Positions 46,254 through 58,692 of a stretch of 64,000 nucleotides of DNA are shown piece after piece. The notes beneath the pieces were generated by a model. The model did not search any database and was not told where the DNA came from. It saw only the letters and a program-made list of their open reading frames with translations. Positions within the stretch are counted from its first letter, which is position 1. Each line of letters starts with the position of its first letter. A program made the translations under genes and the position numbers. This DNA is from Candidatus Woesebacteria bacterium GW2011_GWB1_33_22 (lineage in GTDB: Bacteria > Patescibacteriota > Microgenomatia > UBA8517), in the NCBI GenBank assembly GCA_000989765.1, contig LBOW01000001.1, forward strand, positions 118,538 to 182,537, read 5' to 3'.

Positions 46254-46798
46254 CAAACTTAGAAATTATTAATCTTTTACAAAGAATTACAGGTCTCGTT
46301 GCTTTGGGGTTAATTACTTTTCAAATTTATCTTGGTGCAAGTCAGAAAGCCATAAAGTTTCATAAATTAAATGGTATCTTAGCTTACACTTTTATATTAA
46401 TTCATCCTATTCTTTTCTTGTTAAGTAGGAAAATTATTTATGACAGATTTGATTTTTATTATATTTTTGTCGATGCCTGTGTTATATGTGATAAACCATA
46501 TGATTTTTTAATAAATTTTGGAAGAATTGCATTCTATTTAATAACAACTGCTGTTTTGGCTGTTAAACTTCGTGGTGTAGTGCCATGGTTAAAAACAAAT
46601 TGGAGAAAATTACACGTATTAAATTACCTAGCTTTCTATTTTGTTTCTTTGCACTCTATAAATATTGGAACTGACTCAAGAAGCACTTGGTTTATTGTTT
46701 ATTTTGCAGTTTGTCAGATAATTGTTTTGTATTCGATTATTAATCGATTAAAGAGAGCAAATTTTGCTGTAAAATTAAAGAGTATGTTTGGTCGATAA
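46250..46798 (+). CDS. hypothetical polytopic membrane protein
   Basis: 5-6 predicted TM helices; no motif. Confidence 0.35.
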   Translation: MTNLEIINLLQRITGLVALGLITFQIYLGASQKAIKFHKLNGILAYTFILIHPILFLLSRKIIYDRFDFYYIFVDACVICDKPYDFLINFGRIAFYLITTAVLAVKLRGVVPWLKTNWRKLHVLNYLAFYFVSLHSINIGTDSRSTWFIVYFAVCQIIVLYSIINRLKRANFAVKLKSMFGR

Positions 46799-48365
46799 AC
46801 CTAGGTGTATACATTCTGATTTGATTTATTAAAGATCTAATAATAATTTTATTTGGATATCTCTTATAAATCTGAAGATGCACTTTAATTGTTTGATAAA
46901 TACCTCTGTTTTTAATTAATTTGTCAGAATATGCATTATCAAGATCTTTAATAATTTCATCAATTGTAACAGCAACTTTATTTTGTGAATTGTAATTAAT
47001 ATTATACGTATCTAGATCGTTAGCAAATAATATTCCTGGAAAAGAATTTTGAGTAACATTCCCGTTTTCATCATATAAATATGAATCCAATACATAATCT
47101 CCTGTTGGCCCAGTCAGCTTTAATTTATAAATACCGTCAGCTGGCTTTTCAAATGTTAAAACTAAAAGCGATCCACCTTCATTTTTAATTGATTCTTCAA
47201 TATATTTAATAGTCTCTATAATATTTCCATTTGAATCCAATAATTCCAAATTATAATTAAAATCAACAACAAACATCATATATGAAAGATCAGAATGAGT
47301 TGGAGTGTATGAATTTATTGCTAAATAATTATCACCATAACTTTCCAAAGTATTTCTAGTCGCATAACCTGGATCATTTATAAAATATGTATCGTATTTT
47401 TTACCTGTAGCTACGATAAAATGACCAGGCTCTTTTAAAATTACAGGATGTAAGCTACTTAACTCACTGTCTAATTTGTCATCATCAACTCCTAATCGTT
47501 TATACTCAAGAGTAGGAGAAGAATTACTATCATTAATTTTTGTAAAACGAGAAACTGCAAGCCAGTTAATTAAACCATTTCTAATGTAACCATCTGATTG
47601 ACTATTTAACCAATTATTTAAAGTGTCTGGCATTGTATTATGACCATGATATTTTAAAACCATGACTGCAGAAGTTAAGGCACAGCCCCAATCTTTAATT
47701 GTTTTGATAGTGTGATCATAAACTTGATTTTCCCAACCTCCTTCGTATTGTTTGATATTTGGCACCCCCATAGGTGTTTGTGTGGGAGTTGCCGTTATGG
47801 TTGGTGTTGCAGTAACTGTGGGTGTTGAAGTAGCAGTTGCTGTAGCTGTCATCGTCGCCGTAGCGGTGGCAGTTGCAGTTGGGGTACTGACAATCCCAGT
47901 TCTTGCGCAATCTGTCCATGTTGCCCCTTCAGCTGTTGTGCCAGGAAGTACGCCATACATAATTCTTAATGATTCATATGTTGGTGAAATATTAAAATCA
48001 AGCCCATAAATACCGTTCGGTAATAGATGATATGTCCCCGAAGGGATCTCATAACTCCAATATTCGCCTGTCCCACTGTTTTGTTTACATGCAATTGTTC
48101 CTTTTCCGTTCTCATTTACACATTGCGGGTCAGAATAATAATTCCAGGGCGTACCTATGTCTGGGGAATAAACATTTGTAATAATTGCTGAACCGTTTCG
48201 GCGGATATACTGAATAACAGCTAATTTGTCTGTGTCAGATGTTATTGAAAAATCTAAATGATTGTTAGTAATAGTTGCTTCGTAAGTACAAGTAGAAGCA
48301 AATATAGGGGACGGAAATATAGTAAAATAAACAAACGTCAAAATTAATACAATTCTGTATCGCAT
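46740..48365 (-). CDS. secreted protein with Thr/Ala/Pro-rich linker and C39-like (papain-fold) peptidase domain
   Basis: signal peptide, a (T-A-T-P)n linker encoded by a locally GC-rich stretch, then a GCALTSAVMVLKYHG cysteine-peptidase C39_2-like motif. Confidence 0.55.
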   Translation of the reverse strand: MRYRIVLILTFVYFTIFPSPIFASTCTYEATITNNHLDFSITSDTDKLAVIQYIRRNGSAIITNVYSPDIGTPWNYYSDPQCVNENGKGTIACKQNSGTGEYWSYEIPSGTYHLLPNGIYGLDFNISPTYESLRIMYGVLPGTTAEGATWTDCARTGIVSTPTATATATATMTATATATSTPTVTATPTITATPTQTPMGVPNIKQYEGGWENQVYDHTIKTIKDWGCALTSAVMVLKYHGHNTMPDTLNNWLNSQSDGYIRNGLINWLAVSRFTKINDSNSSPTLEYKRLGVDDDKLDSELSSLHPVILKEPGHFIVATGKKYDTYFINDPGYATRNTLESYGDNYLAINSYTPTHSDLSYMMFVVDFNYNLELLDSNGNIIETIKYIEESIKNEGGSLLVLTFEKPADGIYKLKLTGPTGDYVLDSYLYDENGNVTQNSFPGILFANDLDTYNINYNSQNKVAVTIDEIIKDLDNAYSDKLIKNRGIYQTIKVHLQIYKRYPNKIIIRSLINQIRMYTPRFIDQTYSLILQQNLLSLID

Positions 48366-50012: not shown

Positions 50013-50875
50013 AAATAGTTTTTTTAACACGTAGGGCAGCTCCTCAAATTGGAGGGGTGGAAAGTCATATAGAGCAAATAGCTAAATGTCTACGGTCTAC
50101 GGCGAATGAAGTAAAAATAATTTCTGAAGCTGATATTAAATATCCTCACCTAAAGTTTATTGGCCTAATTTACATTTGGTTTTGGTTATTTAAAAACAGA
50201 AAATTAATTCTGGATTCTGACATTGTGCATATCCATGATGTTTTTATTTGGTATTTGCCATTTAAATTTATATATCCCAAGAAAAAAGTATTTTTAACTA
50301 TTCATGGACTTGAGTGGGGGAATCCTTTTAAATATTCAAGTCTTTTGCAAAAAAGAATTGCAGTTAAATTATCCACTAGTTCAATTGGGGTGGGAAAGTT
50401 TTTAGAAAAATATATTGGATGTAAATTCGACAAAATAATTTACGGTGGGCTAGATCGTTCATTAACTACTAATCACCTGCCTGCGCAGGCAGGCAAATCA
50501 CCAAACACCATTCTTTTTGTGGGAAGGTTAGAACCAGATACGGGACTTGGGGAGTTTCTGAAATGGTTACGTTCTAGTAGTCTAGTTCACGGAACTAAGG
50601 TTGATTTTGTTGGTGATGGAAGCCTCAGATCCGAATGTGAGAGATTCGGAATTGTACATGGATTTTGTGATCCTACTCCATTTTATAAAAAAGCAGAAAC
50701 AGTTGTACCGTCAGGATACTTGACTTTTCTTGAAGCAAAAAGTTATGGCTGTAAAATAAAAACTTTTTATAGTTCTCAACTTAAAAAAGAATATTGGGAA
50801 GAAATTTTAAAATTAAAAAATTTTGACACTTGGAATGATATTGCCAATGTTTATTTAAAGTTGTGGAAAAGGTAA
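49997..50875 (+). CDS. glycosyltransferase (GT4-like)
   Basis: MKIVFLTRRAAPQIGGVESHIEQIAK N-terminus; contains the GC-rich palindrome at 50476-50493 in-frame. Confidence 0.55.
   Translation: MSKTMKIVFLTRRAAPQIGGVESHIEQIAKCLRSTANEVKIISEADIKYPHLKFIGLIYIWFWLFKNRKLILDSDIVHIHDVFIWYLPFKFIYPKKKVFLTIHGLEWGNPFKYSSLLQKRIAVKLSTSSIGVGKFLEKYIGCKFDKIIYGGLDRSLTTNHLPAQAGKSPNTILFVGRLEPDTGLGEFLKWLRSSSLVHGTKVDFVGDGSLRSECERFGIVHGFCDPTPFYKKAETVVPSGYLTFLEAKSYGCKIKTFYSSQLKKEYWEEILKLKNFDTWNDIANVYLKLWKR
50476..50493. repeat. GC-rich palindrome copy B (CCTGCCTGCGCAGGCAGG), in-frame in a GT gene
   Basis: perfect 18-bp palindrome flanked by aatca on both sides; encodes PAQAGK. Confidence 0.8.
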
Positions 50876-50924
50876 CTATTTTACTTCTTGACACTTGACT
50901 AAATAGTCGGGTATATTATATATA

Positions 50925-51560
50925 ATGCAACCCATATTAACCAAAAGACAAAAAGATTTGTTACAGATAATTTACTCACATATTAAAAACGAGGGATATC
51001 CTCCCACATTTGAAGAAATGAGAAATTCTTTAAATGTCGCCTCTAACCAATCCGTAATTGATTTACTTAATAAACTTGAAAATAAAAAAGTAATAGTCAG
51101 GAACGAATCTTCAGCACGGGGATTAACAATTTTACCTTTTGGATACGAATTTTTAAACAAGAAACCTTTAACACCATTTTTAGGAGTCTCTCATGCAGGT
51201 TCACCCATAGATACAATTTCAATTCAGGGTGAATGGAAGGAAATATCAAGTGAACTAACGAAACTTGTAGATGAAGTTTTTATTCTTAAGGTTACTGGAG
51301 ATTCTATGATTAATGCTGGAATTTATGATGGCGACAATGTGTTGGTTCAAAAACAGAAAGAATATGCGTCAGGAGATATTGTTCTTGCTGATGTAAATGG
51401 CGAATCGACAATCAAGAGGTTTATGTCCGATGATAAACCTCCATACCTTTATTTGAAACCTGAAAACCCAAGTTACAAAAACATTACTTTTACAAGTAAT
51501 GTCATGCTTAATGGAAAAGTAATTTCTATCATTAAAAATAATCAATTTAGATATTTATAA
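50925..51560 (+). CDS. lexA: LexA-like transcriptional repressor (S24 peptidase)
   Basis: N-terminal winged HTH; C-terminal VTGDSMINAGI (Ser) ... K dyad of the S24 family. Confidence 0.8.
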   Translation: MQPILTKRQKDLLQIIYSHIKNEGYPPTFEEMRNSLNVASNQSVIDLLNKLENKKVIVRNESSARGLTILPFGYEFLNKKPLTPFLGVSHAGSPIDTISIQGEWKEISSELTKLVDEVFILKVTGDSMINAGIYDGDNVLVQKQKEYASGDIVLADVNGESTIKRFMSDDKPPYLYLKPENPSYKNITFTSNVMLNGKVISIIKNNQFRYL

Positions 51561-51565
51561 TTACT

Positions 51566-53515
51566 ATGCCAACTATTAAACCAAATAAAACAATTGAAAT
51601 CATAGATAAAATCTTTAAAGATCCGTCGCTTAAATTTGGCTTAAGGGAGTTTGAAGGATTAAACTTCGAAGATGTTCTTTATATTTCAAAGGGAGATGAT
51701 AATCGATATTTTGTCAAAGACCTAAAATCTGGGAATAATAAATTTGTATTCGACGAATCTACTCAAAATGGAAAACCAGAAGAAATAGTTAGACAACTTT
51801 GGCTTTATAAATTAAATAAGCAATACAAATATTCATTGGAACGAATAGATACAGAAAAAAGTGTTCATTTCGGAAGGGAGATTCATGCAAAAGCAGCAGA
51901 TATTATCATTTACAAAGAAGATAAAATAACACCTTATATTGTTGTTGAAGTAAAAAGCCCAACAGAAGAAAAGGGTATAGATCAACTTAAGAGTTATCTA
52001 AATGCCGAGGGGTGTGAAATAGGCGTTTGGTCAAATGGAATTGATAGGGTAATTCTTTATAGAAATTATCCAAATAGTTTTGAAGATACTCTTTCTGAAA
52101 TACCCGCCTCAGATAAATCGATCGATGATTTATTGTCAGAAAAAAGAACCTTAGCGGATACAAATCCTAAAGTGGATTTAAAAAGAATTATTCAAATTAC
52201 AGAAGAACTGGTTTTAGCTAATGCAGGTGTCGATGTTTTTAATGAAACTTTTAAATTAATTTATGCCAAACTTTATGATGAACAGGAAGCTGAAAACAGA
52301 GAGGATCAAGAAGTATTTTTTAGAAAGTATAAAGATCCACAAAAAACTTTTACTTCAATAAATACTCTTTTTAGAAACGCAATTCGTAGGTGGCCTGGGA
52401 TTTTCTTTGATCAAGAAGTTATAAGACTTACTCCAGAACATTTAAATGTTGTAGTTGGAGAAATGGAAAAAGTACGCCTTTTTGGATCAGATTTATCAAT
52501 TATTGATGAAGCTTTCGAATATCTTATTCCTGAGGTTGCTAAAAGTAAAAAAGGGCAATATTTTACGCCTCGTCATGTTATTAATATGGCTATTAAAATA
52601 CTAAATCCTAAACAAAATGAATATGTTTTGGATCCTGCTGCAGGATCTGGAGGATTTTTAATTTCTACTATGGCTTGGGTTATGGATCAGTACCTGAAAA
52701 ATAATAAATTAAGACAAGAATATGCAAAGGAATATTTGTATGGTATTGATTTTGCAGATGAGACAGCCAAAGTTTCTAGGGCCTTGATGCTTATAGCAGG
52801 AGATGGTCGATCGCATCTATTTAAGTTAAATTCGCTAGATGCCAGAGAATGGCAAGGTGAAGATGAAGACAAACTTCATGCAAGGCTAGAACTTAAGAAA
52901 AGACTTATAAAATACAAAGATTATGCAGAAGAAGAAACCAATCAGAAGACTTTTAAAGACTTTGATTTTGACATAGTTTTGACGAATCCACCTTTTGCAG
53001 GAGAACTCAAAGACCCCGGATTATTAAGGCAGTATGAATTTGGTAAGAAAAATGGAGAATTAGTCAGAAAAATTGAAAGGCATATTCTTTTTATTGAACG
53101 AGATTTGCAGTTTGTAAAGCCTGGAGGCCGCCTAGCTATAGTTCTTCCTCAAGGAGTATTAAATAATACAAATATGCATTATGTTAGAGAATGGTTATTT
53201 GGTAAAGCTAGAATTTTGGCTGTGGTGGGGCTTCATGTAAATACATTCAAACCACATACGGGTACTAAAACTTCTATTCTTTTTCTTCAAAAATGGAATG
53301 AAAATGATGCACCATTAAAAGACTATCCAATTTTTATGGCAGTTTCTAAAAGAAGTGGTAAGGATAATAGTGGTGAGTATATTTATAAAAAAGACACAGA
53401 AGGCAAACCAATTTTTGATTTTAGGGGAAGAAAAGTAATGGATCATGATTTAGATGAAATCGCAGACAATTTTATAAATTTTGCTAAAAAAGAAGGTTTT
53501 GAATTTTGGAAATGA
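51566..53515 (+). CDS. N6-adenine DNA methyltransferase (HsdM/gamma-class) with N-terminal PD-(D/E)xK HsdR_N-like nuclease domain
   Basis: N-terminal AADIIIY...YIVVEVKSP (D...ExK); MTase motif I DPAAGSGGFL and motif IV NPPF. Confidence 0.8.
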   Translation: MPTIKPNKTIEIIDKIFKDPSLKFGLREFEGLNFEDVLYISKGDDNRYFVKDLKSGNNKFVFDESTQNGKPEEIVRQLWLYKLNKQYKYSLERIDTEKSVHFGREIHAKAADIIIYKEDKITPYIVVEVKSPTEEKGIDQLKSYLNAEGCEIGVWSNGIDRVILYRNYPNSFEDTLSEIPASDKSIDDLLSEKRTLADTNPKVDLKRIIQITEELVLANAGVDVFNETFKLIYAKLYDEQEAENREDQEVFFRKYKDPQKTFTSINTLFRNAIRRWPGIFFDQEVIRLTPEHLNVVVGEMEKVRLFGSDLSIIDEAFEYLIPEVAKSKKGQYFTPRHVINMAIKILNPKQNEYVLDPAAGSGGFLISTMAWVMDQYLKNNKLRQEYAKEYLYGIDFADETAKVSRALMLIAGDGRSHLFKLNSLDAREWQGEDEDKLHARLELKKRLIKYKDYAEEETNQKTFKDFDFDIVLTNPPFAGELKDPGLLRQYEFGKKNGELVRKIERHILFIERDLQFVKPGGRLAIVLPQGVLNNTNMHYVREWLFGKARILAVVGLHVNTFKPHTGTKTSILFLQKWNENDAPLKDYPIFMAVSKRSGKDNSGEYIYKKDTEGKPIFDFRGRKVMDHDLDEIADNFINFAKKEGFEFWK

Positions 53516-55221
53516 AAAAGCTCAAAACTTTGGTAGTACAACTCAATCAGGATTATAAGTCTTTTAAAAATGGTTTTAATTACTCCTTCAATGGCGATTT
53601 GATAATTCTTTCAGGCGTAAACGGAAGTGGAAAATCTCAGTTGGTAGATATCGTTTCACAACGAGAAGGCTATGGAAGTAAGAAGCCTATCGCAGCAACA
53701 ATAACCTTAGATGATAAACAAATAACACTCAACGATGTTTTGCGTCGATCGTTTAAAGAAAATGTCAATGTTCCGGAGTTAACACATGCAGGAACAGAGA
53801 CAGTAAGAAGTCATAAGGATCAAGTATGGAATGCGTATAACAGTTATCGTCTGAATTATACCAACGAAAACTTATGGGATTATAAAAAATCATGTGAAAA
53901 GTCCAAAAAGATTTTGATTGAAAAGTTCGGTGAAGAAAAATTTAATTCTGGTCGGATAACACAGACGGATTTGCATGATAAATTGCCGACCGATTTTGTA
54001 TGGAAGTCAGATGATGTTTTTACCAATTTTATTGGTGAACTTTTTTTTAACTATGCGGTTGATGTATATGATGCTGAAGCCGAGGCGGGAAGATCTGGTA
54101 ACAAACTTGATTCCACTTCATTACCTATCCCACCATGGAAACAGTTAAATAGTCTTTTTTTTGACTTAGGGTTTGAATATAGATTTAAGGAGAATTTTTT
54201 TGTAAAAAGTCTTCAGATCAACGAACAACCAAATTTGTATCAAGTAAAAGGTGATGGTACGATTGATGAAAATGAACAGAGAAAGCTTGCTGACCTATCT
54301 GATGGTGAAAAAGCAATTATTTCACTTTCGTTTGCTTCACTATCGGGCGTAAAAGAGAACGACAAGAAAATTTTATTATTAGATGAGTTTGATGCCAATT
54401 TTAATCCATCTTTAACAGAGAGATTTTATAAAATAATTGACAAATATTTTATATCGCAAGGAATTTTAGTAATAGTTGCCACACACTCACCCACAACAAT
54501 TTCTTTAGCTCCAGAAAATGCTAGTTTCTACGAAGCATTTAAGCCAAATACCGGATCATCACGAATTTTGTCAGTGCAAAGGGACGATTATGACGAATTA
54601 AAAATTGCAAACAAGGAGTTTTATTCAAAAATAGCAGACCAGACGAAACGTATTGCTGAATTAGAAAAAGAAAAAACAGAATTAGATATACTTATACAAC
54701 AAACAAAACCTTCTCTATTTGTCGAAGGACCTACTGATGTCCAATATCTAAATAAGGCGTCAGAATTCTACCCCGAATGGAAACAAATTTTGAATAACAT
54801 AAACATAGAAGAGAAACATGGTAGCGAACTACATAAATACAGAAAAAACAAGTCCTACATAAAAGAATTCTTACTCCAACCACTTATATTACTTTTTGAT
54901 TGTGACACCAAGTTAGAAAATATTGATGAACAGCAAGTGTATGTCCGTTGCATACCATTTCTAAAAGAAAATTCTATTAAAAATGGTATAGAAAATCTAC
55001 TACCTGATGATCTGGTTCTTAAAGCCGAAAAATCTATCGGTGAAAAAGTTACAAACAAGTCTATACCTAATGCAGACGAAAAGGACAAACAAGAATGGAG
55101 TGTTATAGGCAGCAAAAAAACAGATCTTGCTGGTTGGATCTGTTCAAATGCGGAAAAAAAGGATTTTGAAAATTTTAAAACAATCTTTGATATTATCCAA
55201 ACAATTATTAAAACAAGATGA
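53506..55221 (+). CDS. OLD-family ABC-type ATPase with C-terminal TOPRIM nuclease domain
   Basis: Walker A GVNGSGKSQ, Walker B ILLLDEFDANFNP, H-loop ATHSPT; C-terminal FVEGPTD (TOPRIM Glu) and LLFDCD (DxD). Confidence 0.7.
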   Translation: MEMKKLKTLVVQLNQDYKSFKNGFNYSFNGDLIILSGVNGSGKSQLVDIVSQREGYGSKKPIAATITLDDKQITLNDVLRRSFKENVNVPELTHAGTETVRSHKDQVWNAYNSYRLNYTNENLWDYKKSCEKSKKILIEKFGEEKFNSGRITQTDLHDKLPTDFVWKSDDVFTNFIGELFFNYAVDVYDAEAEAGRSGNKLDSTSLPIPPWKQLNSLFFDLGFEYRFKENFFVKSLQINEQPNLYQVKGDGTIDENEQRKLADLSDGEKAIISLSFASLSGVKENDKKILLLDEFDANFNPSLTERFYKIIDKYFISQGILVIVATHSPTTISLAPENASFYEAFKPNTGSSRILSVQRDDYDELKIANKEFYSKIADQTKRIAELEKEKTELDILIQQTKPSLFVEGPTDVQYLNKASEFYPEWKQILNNINIEEKHGSELHKYRKNKSYIKEFLLQPLILLFDCDTKLENIDEQQVYVRCIPFLKENSIKNGIENLLPDDLVLKAEKSIGEKVTNKSIPNADEKDKQEWSVIGSKKTDLAGWICSNAEKKDFENFKTIFDIIQTIIKTR

Positions 55222-56606
55222 TAACTTTTTCGATAATCCAAAAATCAGGGCTTGAGGGTGCAGATCGAATTGATGCCGAGTATTACCAACCTGAATATTT
55301 AGAGGCAGAGCGAAAAATAACACACCTTAAAAACGAACCATTAGGAGAAATTTTAGAAATGCTTACGGATTATCATGCCAATGGAAGTTATAGTATATTG
55401 AAAAATTACGGAAAAATTCAAACAGAACCAGATTATGCACTAATGGTAAGAGCAGTTGATCTTCAAAATAGTAACTTTGAGAACGATGTCAGATATGTTA
55501 CTGAAAATTCTTACAACTTTTTGAAGAAAACAAAAATTTATGGCAATGAATTAGTAATAGATAAGATAGGGAATGCGGGAAATGTTTACTTTATGCCAAA
55601 ATTGAATAGGCCTGTAACATTGGGAATGAATCTTTTTATGCTTCGTTTAAAGAAAGATTTTGATTCTAGGTTTGTATATGTTTTTTTAAATTCAAAATAT
55701 GGTAAATTGTCGATTTACAGAAGAGTTACTGGAACAAACCCATCAAGTATAGATAAGGAATCAGTTAGAAGTATAAAAATACCAGCCTTCTCAATCGAAG
55801 ATCAAAATGAGATAGGCCAATTAGTTAACTTATCTTTTGATGAGAAAGAAAATTCTAAAAAAATATATCAGCAAGCAGAGAACTTACTTTTGGAAGAGTT
55901 GGGGCTAAAAGATTTTAAAATTCCTGAAGATTTGAGTTACATTGTTAATTATTCAGATACGGGAAAAGTTGGTAGAGTTGATGCGGATTATTTCCAACCT
56001 AAATATCAAGTAATTTCTGATAAAATAAAAACCAGGAATGCAAAACTTTTAGGAGAATTGGTTACTCTCAAAAAAGGTCTTGAACCCGGAAGTGAAGCAT
56101 ATCAAGAAGAAGGAAAATTGTTCATTCGGGTCAGTAGTTTATCAAAGTATGGAATTGAAGGTAAAGATCAAAAATATTTATCAGACGAACTTTATCAAAA
56201 ATTAAAATTAGATTACGAACCACAACTGGGGGAAATTTTATTAACTAAGGATGCAACTCCCGGAATTTCCTATGTTTTAAAAGAGTTCACTGAAGGGATA
56301 ATTTCAGGCGGAATTTTAAGGCTTAAACTAAAAAGTGATATCGAGCCAGAATATTTATCTCTTTGTATTAGTTCCCTGATAGGACAAATGCAGGCAGAAA
56401 GAGATGCTGGAGGGTCAATTATTGTTCATTGGAAACCAGAACAAATAAAAAATATTTTAATTCCAATTCTATCAAAAGAAACTCAAAGAAAAATTGCGGA
56501 TTTGGTTATAAAATCACATTTAGCGAGAAAAAAGTCAAAAGAATTATTAGATGTAGCAAAACGAAAAGTTGAAGAAATGATAGAAATGAATATAGATAAT
56601 AAATGA
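55218..56606 (+). CDS. hsdS: type I restriction-modification specificity subunit HsdS (two target-recognition domains)
   Basis: duplicated RIDAEYYQPEY / RVDADYFQPKY conserved regions bracketing two TRDs; start overlaps the upstream stop (ATGA). Confidence 0.8.
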   Translation: MITFSIIQKSGLEGADRIDAEYYQPEYLEAERKITHLKNEPLGEILEMLTDYHANGSYSILKNYGKIQTEPDYALMVRAVDLQNSNFENDVRYVTENSYNFLKKTKIYGNELVIDKIGNAGNVYFMPKLNRPVTLGMNLFMLRLKKDFDSRFVYVFLNSKYGKLSIYRRVTGTNPSSIDKESVRSIKIPAFSIEDQNEIGQLVNLSFDEKENSKKIYQQAENLLLEELGLKDFKIPEDLSYIVNYSDTGKVGRVDADYFQPKYQVISDKIKTRNAKLLGELVTLKKGLEPGSEAYQEEGKLFIRVSSLSKYGIEGKDQKYLSDELYQKLKLDYEPQLGEILLTKDATPGISYVLKEFTEGIISGGILRLKLKSDIEPEYLSLCISSLIGQMQAERDAGGSIIVHWKPEQIKNILIPILSKETQRKIADLVIKSHLARKKSKELLDVAKRKVEEMIEMNIDNK

Positions 56607-57487
56607 CTTCAGAAAAAATGAAAGTTTCTGTTTGTGTAACTACAAAAAATGAGAGGGAAGAAACAATTAAAAAGCTTTTTGATGCTTTAAATAATCAAAC
56701 TTTAAAGCCCAATGAAATAATCATAATTGATGCAAAGGATTATGACAACTGCAGTAGATCTATAGGTAGAAACATTGCTATTAAAAAGGCCAAAAATGAA
56801 ATCATTGCTCTAACTGATGTTGGTTGCTTACCTAAAAAAGATTGGTTAGAAAAACTCACAAAACCTTTTCAACAGAAAAATATTGATGTAGTTGCAGGTT
56901 TTTACAACATGACTTACAAAAACAATTTACAAAAAAGCATGAGAAAATTTCTTGGAGTATTACCTTCAAAATTCAATAAGCAGAGCTTGCTACTTCGTAG
57001 TAAAAATTTTTTACCTTCTGCAAGATCAATGGCTTTTACTAAATCAATCTGGAAAAAAGCCGGAGGATTCCCTGAAAAATTAAGCGGAACTGCTGAAGAT
57101 ACGCTTTTTAATGTAAATTTAATTAAAGCAGGAGTAAAATTTGTCACAGCAAAAAATGCAATTGTAGAGTGGGGGATGCCTGAAACAATTTCCAATTTTC
57201 AATTAGCAATTTTCAATTACGCTGAGGGCGACGGACAGGCAGGTATTTGGTGGCATCCTACAAAACGCTTTCAGTCGCACAATATAAAGATAAGCTTGAT
57301 CTACTTGCGTTATCTTTTAGCGTTTATCTTTTTAGCATTTGGTTATTACGGTACTTTAGGTGTCTTTACAGGGATTTATATGCTCTATGCTTTCGGCAAG
57401 GCTGGTCTCTGGGGACTTATTTTGCAACCAGTTTCAGATATTGCTGTTATGGCAGGATTCATTCGAGGTATAATGACTTCTAAATGA
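56603..57487 (+). CDS. glycosyltransferase family 2 with C-terminal TM helices
   Basis: VSVCVTTKNEREETIKKLFDALNNQT...IIIIDA GT-A N-terminus; hydrophobic C-terminus. Confidence 0.7.
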   Translation: MTSEKMKVSVCVTTKNEREETIKKLFDALNNQTLKPNEIIIIDAKDYDNCSRSIGRNIAIKKAKNEIIALTDVGCLPKKDWLEKLTKPFQQKNIDVVAGFYNMTYKNNLQKSMRKFLGVLPSKFNKQSLLLRSKNFLPSARSMAFTKSIWKKAGGFPEKLSGTAEDTLFNVNLIKAGVKFVTAKNAIVEWGMPETISNFQLAIFNYAEGDGQAGIWWHPTKRFQSHNIKISLIYLRYLLAFIFLAFGYYGTLGVFTGIYMLYAFGKAGLWGLILQPVSDIAVMAGFIRGIMTSK

Positions 57488-58692
57488 ATCTTAAATCAAG
57501 CTTACTTTGGACGGGGAGTCTTCGCATTGTTACTCGAGGATTAACAATTATTAAAACCTTAATCCTGGCCCGTATTTTAACTCCAGCACAGTTTGGTATT
57601 TTTGGGATAGCATCACTTGTTTTAGGATTTTTAGAAACAATGACTGAAACAGGTGTTAATGTTATTTTGATTCAAGAAAAAGGTGATATTAAAAACTATA
57701 TAAATACAGGCTGGGTTGTATCAATTGTAAGAGGATTTTTAATATCTTCATTAATTATTTTTATGTCCCCTTTTATAATAACCTTTTTTAATTCGCTAGA
57801 ATCTCTTTATTCACTCCGCTTGATATCTTTAATTCCAATAATCAGAGGATTTATTAATCCAGCAGTAGTTAGTTATCAGAAAAATTTAAAATTTAATAGT
57901 GAATTTAAATTTAGGGGAAGTTTGATTTTATTTGAGGTCGTCACGACCATTTTATTTGGATTGATTATGCGAAGTGAGATTGCATTTGTTTTGGGAATGA
58001 TTACATCTTCTTTCCTTGAAGTTGTGCTTTCCTTTGCAATAATATCTCCCCGTCCCAGATTAGAATTTAATTTTAAGAAACTTAAAATTTTACTGTCCCT
58101 TGGTAAGTGGATTACTTTCGCAAAAATTTTTGATTATTTATTTTCTCACGGTGATGATATTGTGGTTGGAAAGCTTTTGGGAGTATACCCTTTGGGAATT
58201 TACCAACAGGCCTATAAAATATCAACACTTCCAATAACTGAAATTTCAGAAACTTTTCAAAAAGTTACCTTTCCACTTTACTCTAAAATGGTTGCAGAAA
58301 ATGCTTCAATTAAAAAAATATATCTTAAGACTCTTTTAACTACTTCTTTAATAATTATTCCGTTTGGAATTGTTTTGTATCTATTTCCCAAAGAAATAGT
58401 TATTTTAATTTTAGGAAATCAATGGTTATCTGCTGCACCTGTTTTACAGGTTTTAGCAAGCTTTGGTGTTGTTAAAACAATTGCTAATAGTTCATTTCCA
58501 CTTCTTTTGGCTAATAAAAGGCAAGACTTAGTTATGGCACTAACGTTAATTGGAATAATAGGCCTTGGGACAACAATTTATCCCTTGGTTAATATTTATG
58601 GATTAGTTGGTGCTGGAATATCAACAATTATTGGAAGTTTAGTTATGATACCTCCTGCATTTTACTGGGTTAGAAAATTAACAAATGATTAA
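57484..58692 (+). CDS. Wzx-like polysaccharide flippase (MOP superfamily)
   Basis: 12-TM protein with the Polysacc_synt-like N-terminal pattern. Confidence 0.65.
   Translation: MNLKSSLLWTGSLRIVTRGLTIIKTLILARILTPAQFGIFGIASLVLGFLETMTETGVNVILIQEKGDIKNYINTGWVVSIVRGFLISSLIIFMSPFIITFFNSLESLYSLRLISLIPIIRGFINPAVVSYQKNLKFNSEFKFRGSLILFEVVTTILFGLIMRSEIAFVLGMITSSFLEVVLSFAIISPRPRLEFNFKKLKILLSLGKWITFAKIFDYLFSHGDDIVVGKLLGVYPLGIYQQAYKISTLPITEISETFQKVTFPLYSKMVAENASIKKIYLKTLLTTSLIIIPFGIVLYLFPKEIVILILGNQWLSAAPVLQVLASFGVVKTIANSSFPLLLANKRQDLVMALTLIGIIGLGTTIYPLVNIYGLVGAGISTIIGSLVMIPPAFYWVRKLTND

What the first reader, a model, noticed from the sequence alone, without database searches (positions are those of the whole stretch)
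51566..56606. Restriction-modification-like operon in which an OLD-family ATPase/TOPRIM nuclease takes the place of HsdR
Three translationally coupled genes with overlapping stops and starts. (i) An N6-adenine MTase with both HsdM motifs (DPAAGSGGFL, NPPF) and an N-terminal PD-(D/E)xK HsdR_N-like domain. (ii) A 571-aa protein with ABC-type Walker A, Walker B and H-loop, a coiled-coil segment and a C-terminal TOPRIM (FVEGPTD, DCD), which is the architecture of OLD / Gabija GajA-type nucleases. (iii) A canonical two-TRD HsdS. There is no SF2 helicase/translocase HsdR anywhere in the window. The HsdS implies a sequence-specific M2S1-like methylase complex, so the OLD-like ATPase/TOPRIM protein and/or the N-terminal PD-ExK domain are the only candidates for the restriction or abortive activity. 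An OLD-type nuclease directed by a type I specificity subunit has not, to my knowledge, been characterised. Alternatively, this is a type I R-M locus with an embedded independent OLD-type defence gene and a lost hsdR.
Basis: partly seen in the sequence, partly recalled or inferred. Interest (0 to 1): 0.85.

Follow-up and report, generated by a model that had tools for sequence, protein, structure and literature searches.

The report
OLD nuclease nested in R-M operon
This is a two-gene restriction-modification system whose methylase carries its own DNA-cutting domain and so needs no HsdR, with a separate, optional OLD-type ATPase-nuclease defence gene inserted between its two genes; defence genes nested in this way are already known.

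Summary
The three genes and their domains are real. No SF2 helicase is present in the window. The main interpretation, that OLD replaces HsdR and is steered by HsdS, is not supported.

(1) The "HsdM" is an RM fusion. A diverse family profile matches the type IIB enzyme RM.BsaXI at 1.8e-59 across both nuclease and methylase domains. All four proven BsaXI catalytic residues align with invariant E97/D112/E128/K130.

(2) None of the 80 closest relatives of this RM gene has the ATPase. S follows RM directly in 26 loci. In 39 loci a variable insert separates them, and the inserts examined encode other known or candidate defence genes.

(3) A syntenic Woesebacteria locus (RM 92% identical) has RM and S 9 nt apart with no ATPase. 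DNA homology breaks exactly at the RM stop codon.

(4) ATPase homologues 65-68% identical also sit between type III Mod and Res genes, after S, or alone.

The middle protein is a genuine OLD-family ABC ATPase-Toprim. A functional tie to R-M, as for mad3 in MADS, cannot be excluded.

Side finding: lexA with a conserved operator-like palindrome directly precedes this RM gene in many Patescibacteria.

The parts
50888..50917 (+). Promoter-like site (TTGACA-18-TATATT) upstream of lexA. It contains the palindrome GACTAAATAGTC (50897-50908), a candidate LexA-type operator.
   Evidence: Best promoter-like match in 50500-57600, 11 of 12 positions. The promoter and palindrome are conserved upstream of lexA in six loci. 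There is a single exact copy of the palindrome in the window.
50925..51560 (+). lexA homologue (LexA DNA-binding domain plus S24 peptidase), 5 nt upstream of the RM gene.
   Evidence: Pfam LexA_DNA_bind 1.5e-14 and Peptidase_S24 3.6e-25. lexA lies directly upstream of the RM gene in 25 of 62 related loci.
51566..53515 (+). RM fusion subunit: N-terminal PD-(D/E)xK endonuclease domain (residues ~71-180; E97, D112, E128, K130), helical connector, and gamma-class N6-adenine methyltransferase (residues ~312-601; DPAAGSGGF, NPPF).
   Evidence: Pfam HSDR_N_2 plus N6_Mtase. PADLOC MTase_I PDLC03034 full length, 7.9e-168. Family profile against PDB: RM.BsaXI 1.8e-59 over both domains, with catalytic residues aligned (PMC11997821).
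53512..55221 (+). Embedded OLD-family gene. ABC ATPase with helical insert (residues ~1-357 in the 571-aa numbering from 53506), helical hairpin (359-397), and C-terminal Toprim (~400-571; E407, D465-x-D467, E496).
   Evidence: Absent from the syntenic locus L156.
55218..56606 (+). Specificity subunit with two target-recognition domains. The central conserved region lies at about 55856-56006.
   Evidence: Pfam Methylase_S. PADLOC Specificity_I full length. EcoKI HsdS matches over both TRDs, E = 0.0041. TRDs are swapped relative to L156: 37.5% identity overall, with the central region 81% identical at DNA level.

Best explanation
The locus contains two separable systems.

(A) A two-gene restriction-modification system similar to type IIB BsaXI/BcgI. 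The 649-aa protein is an RM fusion: an N-terminal PD-(D/E)xK endonuclease, a helical connector and an N6-adenine methyltransferase. With the two-TRD S subunit it presumably forms an (RM)2S complex that methylates a bipartite site and cuts unmethylated DNA itself. No HsdR translocase is needed. It is probably transcribed from the lexA promoter.

(B) A self-contained OLD-family defence gene (ABC ATPase sensor plus Toprim nuclease effector) nested in the junction between the RM and S genes. In relatives, that junction is a slot for interchangeable defence cargo.

Shown here: the domain architectures, the conservation of catalytic residues, presence/absence of the ATPase gene at one chromosomal locus, the variable slot, and the occurrence of the same ATPase in type III operons and alone.

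Inferred: that the RM fusion cuts DNA; that the ATPase-Toprim acts autonomously as a second-line, possibly abortive, nuclease triggered by a phage cue; and that LexA controls the operon.
For: RM fusion. Pfam HSDR_N_2 plus N6_Mtase. A profile of 27 diverse family members hits RM.BsaXI at 1.8e-59 in two collinear stretches, against at best 3.9e-28 for the other methyltransferases in PDB, including type I HsdM, which match in the methylase domain only. BsaXI catalytic residues E73/D90/E105/K107 (PMC11997821) align with E97/D112/E128/K130, which are invariant in that alignment.

No HsdR. None in the window. None of ten large neighbouring ORFs sampled from the 80 RM-relative loci (736 kb) is HsdR-like; one is a generic DEAD-box helicase.

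ATPase is optional:
- 0 of 80 closest RM relatives (44-73% identity) carry it.
- Of 65 resolved loci, S is adjacent in 26 and separated by an insert of more than 100 nt in 39.
- The inserts examined include an Old/AriA-like protein, PDC-S06, PDC-M36A, PDC-M04A/DUF3800, PD-T7-4 and Schlafen-like proteins.
- Syntenic locus L156 (RM 92%, LexA 88%, flippase 84% identical) has RM-TAA, 9 nt, then the S ATG and no ATPase. Homology to the window stops at 53516.

ATPase is autonomous and mobile. Contexts of homologues at 64-68% identity:
- RM-A-S, four loci counting the window.
- RM-S-A, one locus.
- Type III Mod-A-Res, two loci plus one with a variant C-terminal domain.
- Solitary, one locus.
At 30-47% identity, the homologues whose surroundings were annotated are solitary or in other contexts, and none of the 64 genome loci has an adjacent relative of the window's M or S.

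OLD identity of the ATPase.

Precedent: defence genes embedded in Hma systems, including a validated ABC ATPase-TOPRIM fusion (HEC-04), and further embedded genes in BREX, DISARM and type I R-M (bioRxiv 10.1101/2024.01.29.577857).
Against: In MADS, the mad3 ATPase-Toprim lies between the methylase and S genes and is required for defence, and deleting mad5 is lethal unless mad2 or mad3 is also deleted. So a gene in this position can be functionally integrated.

Seven of nine close ATPase homologues (eight of ten counting the variant in L009) are attached to an R-M operon. That is more than simple hitch-hiking would predict, although the sample is small and comes from CPR genomes with few defence loci.

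No solved structure or assay exists for this RM family. My structure model of it failed (pLDDT 52.7). The protein also lacks the C-terminal 'paddle' that BsaXI needs for cleavage.
Confidence: 0.7

Rival explanations
1. The ATPase-Toprim is a functional partner of the R-M system, not independent cargo. It could act as a PrrC-like or PARIS-like guard held latent by the R-M complex and fired when a phage blocks restriction. Alternatively it could be a restriction-enhancing component, like mad3 in MADS.
For: Seven of nine close homologues are inside or next to R-M operons, of two different types. The best PADLOC hit is mad3 at 7e-16, and the RM and S genes hit MAD2 and MAD5. In MADS, mad3 is needed for defence. 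Ocr and Stp trigger PARIS and PrrC.
Against: The ATPase is dispensable for keeping RM-S. It occurs alone at 65% identity. Its partners belong to two unrelated R-M architectures, so a specific protein-protein interface is unlikely to be shared. HEC-04, the embedded ATPase-TOPRIM fusion of Payne et al., conferred phage defence when tested, apparently as the candidate alone.
Confidence: 0.2
2. One reading: the OLD-like protein is the restriction subunit that replaces HsdR and is directed to DNA by the M2S1 complex.
For: There is no HsdR in the window. The three genes are tightly coupled. The gene order resembles MADS.
Against: The RM protein has its own conserved nuclease domain. None of 80 RM-S relatives has the ATPase, and they have no HsdR either. 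A syntenic sister locus lacks it. The same ATPase occurs with type III Res-containing systems and alone. The tight coupling also extends to the unrelated downstream glycosyltransferase.
Confidence: 0.05
3. This is a decayed type I locus. M and S survive as an orphan methylase, the N-terminal nuclease-like domain is inactive, and hsdR was lost or lies elsewhere in the genome.
For: Public records label family members 'Type I Restriction Enzyme', 'type I restriction enzyme M protein' or 'N-6 DNA methylase'. PADLOC files the protein as MTase_I. The rest of the genome was not seen.
Against: The four catalytic residues are invariant across a family diverged down to 31% identity. The family has at least 7,900 members, and all 120 members listed have the same two-domain architecture. 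None of the neighbours examined in 80 loci is an HsdR. The family is far closer to RM.BsaXI than to HsdM.
Confidence: 0.05

Closest known systems
Type IIB restriction-modification enzymes with separate RM and S subunits (BsaXI, BcgI)
   Same: An RM fusion with an N-terminal PD-(D/E)xK endonuclease, a helical connector and a gamma-class N6-adenine methyltransferase, plus a separate two-TRD S subunit and no translocase. The profile match to RM.BsaXI is 1.8e-59 over both domains, with all four catalytic residues aligned (PMC11997821).
   Different: The protein is 649 aa against 916 aa for RM.BsaXI and lacks the C-terminal 'paddle' implicated in BsaXI cleavage. Cleavage pattern and stoichiometry are untested. 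The gene is linked to lexA and has a cargo slot between RM and S.
Embedded defence genes ('guilt-by-embedding', Payne et al., bioRxiv 10.1101/2024.01.29.577857), including HEC-04 (an ABC ATPase-TOPRIM fusion) and PrrC in type I R-M loci
   Same: A single-gene ABC ATPase-nuclease nested on the same strand between core genes of a multi-gene defence system. Homologues also occur non-embedded. Slot cargo in relatives matches PADLOC candidates derived from that approach: PDC-S06, PDC-M04A and PDC-M36A.
   Different: The host system is a type IIB-like RM-S pair in Patescibacteria, not Hma, BREX, DISARM or classical type I. HEC-04 is not among the top 25 PADLOC hits of the window protein, so this is a different clade.
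MADS (methylation-associated defence system) mad2-mad3-mad5 core
   Same: The order is methylase, then AAA_21 ATPase with a C-terminal OLD-type Toprim, then S subunit (with mad4 before mad5 in MADS). All three window proteins give mad2/mad3/mad5 or MAD2/MAD5 hits.
   Different: Scores are far below the NCBIfam equivalog cut-offs (313 against 720 bits; 140 against 400 bits). The mandatory MAD6 kinase, MAD7 DptG-like and MAD8 HerA-like genes, and mad4 (DUF4276), are absent from the operon.
OLD family nucleases (P2 Old, T. scotoductus OLD, GajA, retron Eco8/Ec67 Toprim effectors)
   Same: An N-terminal ABC ATPase with a helical insert plus a C-terminal Toprim with conserved E and DxD. There are full-length structural matches. 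The Toprim is most similar to that of retron Ec67.
   Different: There is no helicase partner (class 2), no retron RT (class 3) and no separate AriB (PARIS). Unlike the class 1 definition it is not solitary here, although a homologue 65% identical is.

Membership tests
Classical type I R-M (HsdR/HsdM/HsdS) | An SF2 translocase-nuclease HsdR subunit encoded with hsdM and hsdS | tested here: not met
   No helicase among window ORFs of 541 aa or more. None of ten large neighbours sampled from 80 RM-relative loci is HsdR-like. The rest of the genome was not seen.
Classical type I R-M (HsdR/HsdM/HsdS) | A two-TRD HsdS specificity subunit and a gamma-class N6-adenine MTase | tested here: met
   Methylase_S, N6_Mtase and PADLOC Specificity_I/MTase_I matches; EcoKI HsdS match.
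Type IIB R-M (BsaXI/BcgI-like, RM + S) | An RM fusion polypeptide: N-terminal PD-(D/E)xK endonuclease with conserved E, D and ExK, followed by an MTase | tested here: met
   The A6 profile matches RM.BsaXI at 1.8e-59 in two collinear stretches. E73/D90/E105/K107 align with invariant E97/D112/E128/K130.
Type IIB R-M (BsaXI/BcgI-like, RM + S) | A separate (or fused) S component with TRD1-CR1-TRD2-CR2 organisation | tested here: met
   Full-length Specificity_I matches; two Methylase_S stretches; a conserved central region.
Type IIB R-M (BsaXI/BcgI-like, RM + S) | Cleavage on both sides of a bipartite site; (RM)2S assembly | not testable with these tools
   Needs biochemistry. My structure model of the RM protein was unusable (pLDDT 52.7).
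Type IIB R-M (BsaXI subfamily) | A C-terminal double-helical 'paddle' required for cleavage | tested here: not met
   The window protein ends near BsaXI residue ~760 of 916; nothing aligns to the paddle.
OLD family nucleases | An N-terminal ABC ATPase with Walker A, signature motif, Walker B and H-loop | tested here: met
   AAA_21/SMC_N/ABC_tran hits. K43, S265/E268, D293/E294 and H327 are invariant. The fold matches SMC, Rad50 and OLD heads.
OLD family nucleases | A C-terminal Toprim domain with a conserved glutamate and DxD | tested here: met
   E407 and D465 are invariant. The domain profile hits the Ec67 Toprim at 9.5e-5 across all motifs. Eight of 20 members hit Pfam OLD-like_TOPRIM. Full-length Foldseek matches to 9lpa_B, 6p74 and 8x5i.
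OLD class 1 (solitary) / class 2 (Gabija) / class 3 (retron) | Genetic context: alone; next to a UvrD-like helicase; or next to a retron RT and ncRNA (PMC10568477) | tested here: not met
   In the window the gene is flanked by the RM and S genes. No helicase or RT is adjacent. A homologue 65% identical is solitary.
MADS | Presence of MAD6 (kinase), MAD7 (DptG-like) and MAD8 (HerA-like), which are mandatory in the authors' detection model | tested here: not met
   The operon's neighbours are LexA, glycosyltransferases, a flippase, PMT_2 and Wzy_C. The large window ORFs are housekeeping genes. MAD2 and MAD5 scores are below the equivalog cut-offs.
Embedded defence gene (Payne et al.) | Nested on the same strand between core genes of a defence system, with homologues also found non-embedded and the host system found without it | tested here: met

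The most novel reading that the evidence does not exclude
This OLD clade may be a dedicated R-M companion. Its recurrent nesting inside R-M operons of two unrelated architectures (type IIB-like RM-S and type III Mod-Res) could reflect a functional coupling. One possibility is a guard that senses inhibition or failure of restriction and then releases its Toprim nuclease. Another is a restriction-boosting component like mad3 in MADS. In the window all of this would sit under LexA/SOS control.
Probability: 0.2. Interest if true: 0.6.

Novelty: new member of a known kind. Interest (0 to 1): 0.3.

Why it matters
The finding matters mainly as a correction. A locus that looks like 'type I R-M without HsdR, with OLD in its place' is really a self-sufficient type IIB-like RM-S pair carrying optional defence cargo.

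Three smaller points are useful:
- The RM-S junction of this very large Patescibacterial family (at least 7,900 members) is a natural slot for swapping defence genes. It could be mined for new ones by 'guilt by embedding'.
- One OLD clade shows a marked preference for R-M operons of different types. That makes the question of R-M/OLD cross-talk testable.
- The conserved lexA-RM linkage suggests an SOS-linked restriction system in organisms with minimal genomes.

Tried and rejected
- Structure prediction of the RM protein from a shallow alignment (67-92% identity) gave pLDDT 52.7. I did not use it for fold searching and replaced it with a diverse profile search of PDB sequences.
- A single-sequence PDB search of the ATPase found only generic ABC/SMC heads. 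The Toprim needed a domain profile.
- Pfam on the window ATPase alone gives no Toprim hit.
- I had recalled that AAA_13 cargo (L153) meant PrrC/RloC. PADLOC instead assigns it to candidate PDC-S06, so I withdrew that claim.
- The ATPase family is essentially absent from plasmids (one weak hit) and from viral contigs (no hits), so there is no support for a plasmid or phage origin.
- GC and GC3 content of the ATPase gene (0.33/0.265) is not clearly different from its neighbours, so composition gives no evidence of recent transfer.
- The number of promoter-like sites in the region is not above chance (35 against 29.8 +/- 6.3). Only the site upstream of lexA is supported, and that by conservation.
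- tblastn with the window's M and S proteins found no adjacent relatives in 64 genome loci encoding ATPase homologues.
Full report
OBSERVATION

The 649-aa product of 51566-53515 has Pfam HSDR_N_2 (residues 71-180) and N6_Mtase (312-601).

The product of 53506-55221 has AAA_21, SMC_N and ABC_tran. Its ABC motifs are invariant across 42 homologues that go down to 35% identity: K43; S265/E268 in the signature motif; D293/E294; H327.

Its C-terminal domain is a Toprim, on these grounds:
- E407 (VEG) and D465 (DxD) are invariant, and E496 nearly so.
- NCBIfam and PADLOC match the C-terminus to retron Ec67/RT-Toprim models.
- A profile of the isolated domain hits the retron Ec67 protein at 9.5e-5 across EGxTD, DxD, IENLF and the terminal DF-x-F helix.
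- Eight of 20 family members individually hit Pfam OLD-like_TOPRIM.
- A confident AlphaFold model (pLDDT 87.7) gives full-length Foldseek alignments to the retron Eco8 effector, T. scotoductus OLD and GajA.

The product of 55218-56606 is a two-TRD specificity subunit.

No window ORF of 541 aa or more is a helicase. These ORFs are Mur ligases, a PBP, tRNA synthetases and the like.

Two corrections:
- The middle gene probably starts at the ATG at 53512, which overlaps the upstream stop as ATGA.
- The same ATGA overlap joins S to the unrelated downstream glycosyltransferase. Tight coupling is therefore a property of this compact, 31% GC, CPR-type genome and not of the trio.

WHAT THE 'HsdM' IS

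Single-sequence search of PDB puts the type IIB enzyme RM.BsaXI far ahead of every type I HsdM: 2.7e-33 against about 1e-15.

With a profile of 27 diverse family members (alignment A6, down to 31% identity), the match rises to 1.8e-59. It splits into two collinear stretches, the N-terminal nuclease domain and the connector plus methylase.

The four BsaXI residues shown by mutagenesis to be essential for cleavage, and described as absolutely conserved in type IIB enzymes, are E73, D90, E105 and K107 (PMC11997821). They align with E97, D112, E128 and K130, all invariant in A6.

BsaXI works as an (RM)2S heterotrimer without any translocase. The window protein is shorter and lacks the BsaXI C-terminal paddle.

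The family is very large: at least 7,900 proteins at E <= 1e-20. All 120 members listed have the same two Pfam domains, and most of those that carry an organism name are from Patescibacteria.

Across 80 related loci (736 kb), ten large neighbouring ORFs were sampled. They are PolA, a PBP, STAND NTPases and one generic DEAD helicase. None is HsdR-like.

The missing HsdR is therefore not a loss. This family does not use one.

IS THE ATPase PART OF THE SYSTEM?

Reciprocal neighbourhood surveys say it is optional cargo.

Starting from the RM gene:
- None of its 80 closest metagenomic relatives (44-73% identity) has a relative of the ATPase.
- In 65 loci where both gene ends could be placed, S follows RM within 100 nt in 26. 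A variable insert of more than 100 nt separates them in 39.
- In 33 of the 35 inserts longer than 250 nt there are same-strand ORFs of 66-752 aa.
- The inserts examined include a different OLD/AriA-like ATPase-Toprim, PADLOC candidates PDC-S06, PDC-M36A and PDC-M04A/DUF3800, PD-T7-4 and Schlafen-like proteins. Others have no match.

The closest relative is decisive. Woesebacteria contigs L156-L158 are syntenic with the window on both sides: RM 92% identical, LexA 88%, flippase 84%. Yet there the RM stop is followed by 9 nt and then the S start, with no ATPase. DNA homology to the window ends at 53516, the RM stop. It resumes only in the conserved centre of S and from its 3' end. The S TRDs are also swapped (37.5% identity).

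Starting from the ATPase, homologues at 64-68% identity are found in these contexts:
- RM-A-S, four loci counting the window.
- HTH-RM-S-A, one locus.
- Between a type III Mod and Res, two loci plus one with a variant Toprim-like C-terminus. PADLOC confirms MTase_III at 7.6e-125 and REase_III at 8.9e-23.
- Alone, between opposite-strand genes, one locus.

At 30-47% identity the homologues whose surroundings were annotated are solitary or in unrelated contexts. In 64 species-representative genome loci, none has a relative of the window's M or S next to it.

RM phylogeny and ATPase phylogeny disagree. Several RM relatives at 67-73% identity lack the ATPase, whereas RM genes only 47-64% identical to the window's carry an ATPase that is 65-86% identical.

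MECHANISM

The best-supported account is two separable systems.

The RM fusion and S form a type IIB-like enzyme. It methylates its bipartite site and cleaves unmodified DNA through the PD-(D/E)xK domain. This is inferred from homology and from conservation of the catalytic residues.

The nested OLD-family protein is a one-gene ABC ATPase sensor with a Toprim nuclease effector, of the kind reviewed in PMC10568477. It is probably a second-line or abortive defence. This is inferred by analogy.

Nesting of such genes inside defence operons is documented. Payne et al. (bioRxiv 10.1101/2024.01.29.577857) report the following:
- Hma, BREX, DISARM and type I R-M operons frequently contain embedded genes.
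- An embedded ABC ATPase-TOPRIM fusion (HEC-04) is a working defence that depends on both its active sites.
- PrrC is found almost exclusively embedded in type I R-M.

WHAT KEEPS THE RIVAL ALIVE

In MADS (bioRxiv 10.1101/2023.03.30.534895) the order is mad2 methylase, mad3 AAA_21 ATPase with a putative OLD-type Toprim, mad4, then mad5 S subunit.
- mad3 is required for defence, but plasmids prepared in the mad3-deletion strain are treated as methylated.
- mad5 cannot be deleted unless mad2 or mad3 is also deleted.

The window proteins give their best named hits to mad3, MAD2 and MAD5, but far below equivalog thresholds. The mandatory MAD6-8 genes are absent.

Seven of nine close ATPase homologues are attached to some R-M operon (eight of ten counting the variant in L009).

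VERDICT

- Observation: confirmed.
- Headline interpretation: not supported.
- The fallback interpretation is right about the embedded gene and wrong about a lost hsdR.
- Novelty: a new member of known kinds, namely a type IIB-like RM-S pair and an embedded OLD-family gene.
- Interest: modest.

SIDE FINDING

lexA ends 12-38 nt upstream of the RM gene in 23 of 62 related loci. Two further loci have lexA at -13 nt and at 210 nt, giving 25 of 62 in all. In one lineage the order is recA-lexA-RM-x-S-recX.

Upstream of lexA there is a conserved promoter with the palindrome GACTAAATAGTC between the -35 and -10 elements. It is present in six loci and occurs once in the window.

This suggests that the RM-S module and its cargo are under LexA control. 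That may be the more original lead in this region.

Noticed in passing
window 50888-51560 (promoter, palindrome 50897-50908, lexA) and loci L072, L076-L108, L128, L139, L145, L156-L160: A lexA homologue lies directly upstream of this RM gene in 25 of 62 related loci; in 23 of them it ends 12-38 nt before the RM start. LexA and RM diverge in parallel. A conserved promoter, TTGACA-N3-4-GACTAAATAGTC-GGTAT(A/T)AT, precedes lexA in six loci, and the palindrome occurs once in the window. This suggests an SOS/LexA-controlled restriction-modification operon in Patescibacteria.
   Followed up: partly
L159/L160 4222-11013: In one lineage the RM-[GIY-YIG + 187 aa]-S module sits between recA-lexA and recX. 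The R-M system is itself nested inside the recombination/SOS gene cluster.
   Followed up: no
loci L076-L155, junction between the RM and S genes: The RM-S junction is a variable cargo slot. Thirty-nine of 65 resolved loci carry inserts of more than 100 nt, and the ORFs found in them are 66-752 aa. Roughly half of the inserts scanned have no Pfam or PADLOC match (for example L123 347 aa, L094 317 aa, L082 294 aa, L081 238 aa) and are candidate new defence genes by 'guilt by embedding'.
   Followed up: partly
L009 10001-11833; also P0023, P0038, P0046, P0048, P0056, P0090: Many ATPase homologues match only residues 1-420 and carry a different, longer C-terminal domain. That domain still shows Toprim-like motifs (for example VVED...DFDGEG). 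The effector domain has therefore been swapped on a conserved ATPase. One such variant also sits between a type III Mod and Res.
   Followed up: partly
window 55218-56606 compared with L156 9960-11300: Between two otherwise syntenic loci the S subunits are only 37.5% identical, apart from the conserved central and C-terminal regions. Both target-recognition domains have been exchanged, which implies a different recognition sequence.
   Followed up: partly
L005 7952-9979 (Flavobacterium tistrianum): A 675-aa ORF with no Pfam match ends 21 nt upstream of the ATPase homologue on the same strand. It may be an uncharacterised partner gene.
   Followed up: no
window 46740-48365 (- strand): A 541-aa Peptidase_C39-like protein with a long Thr/Ala/Pro-rich repeat linker (TATATATATMTATATATSTPTVTATPTITATPTQTP). 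It is conserved in synteny with L156.
   Followed up: no
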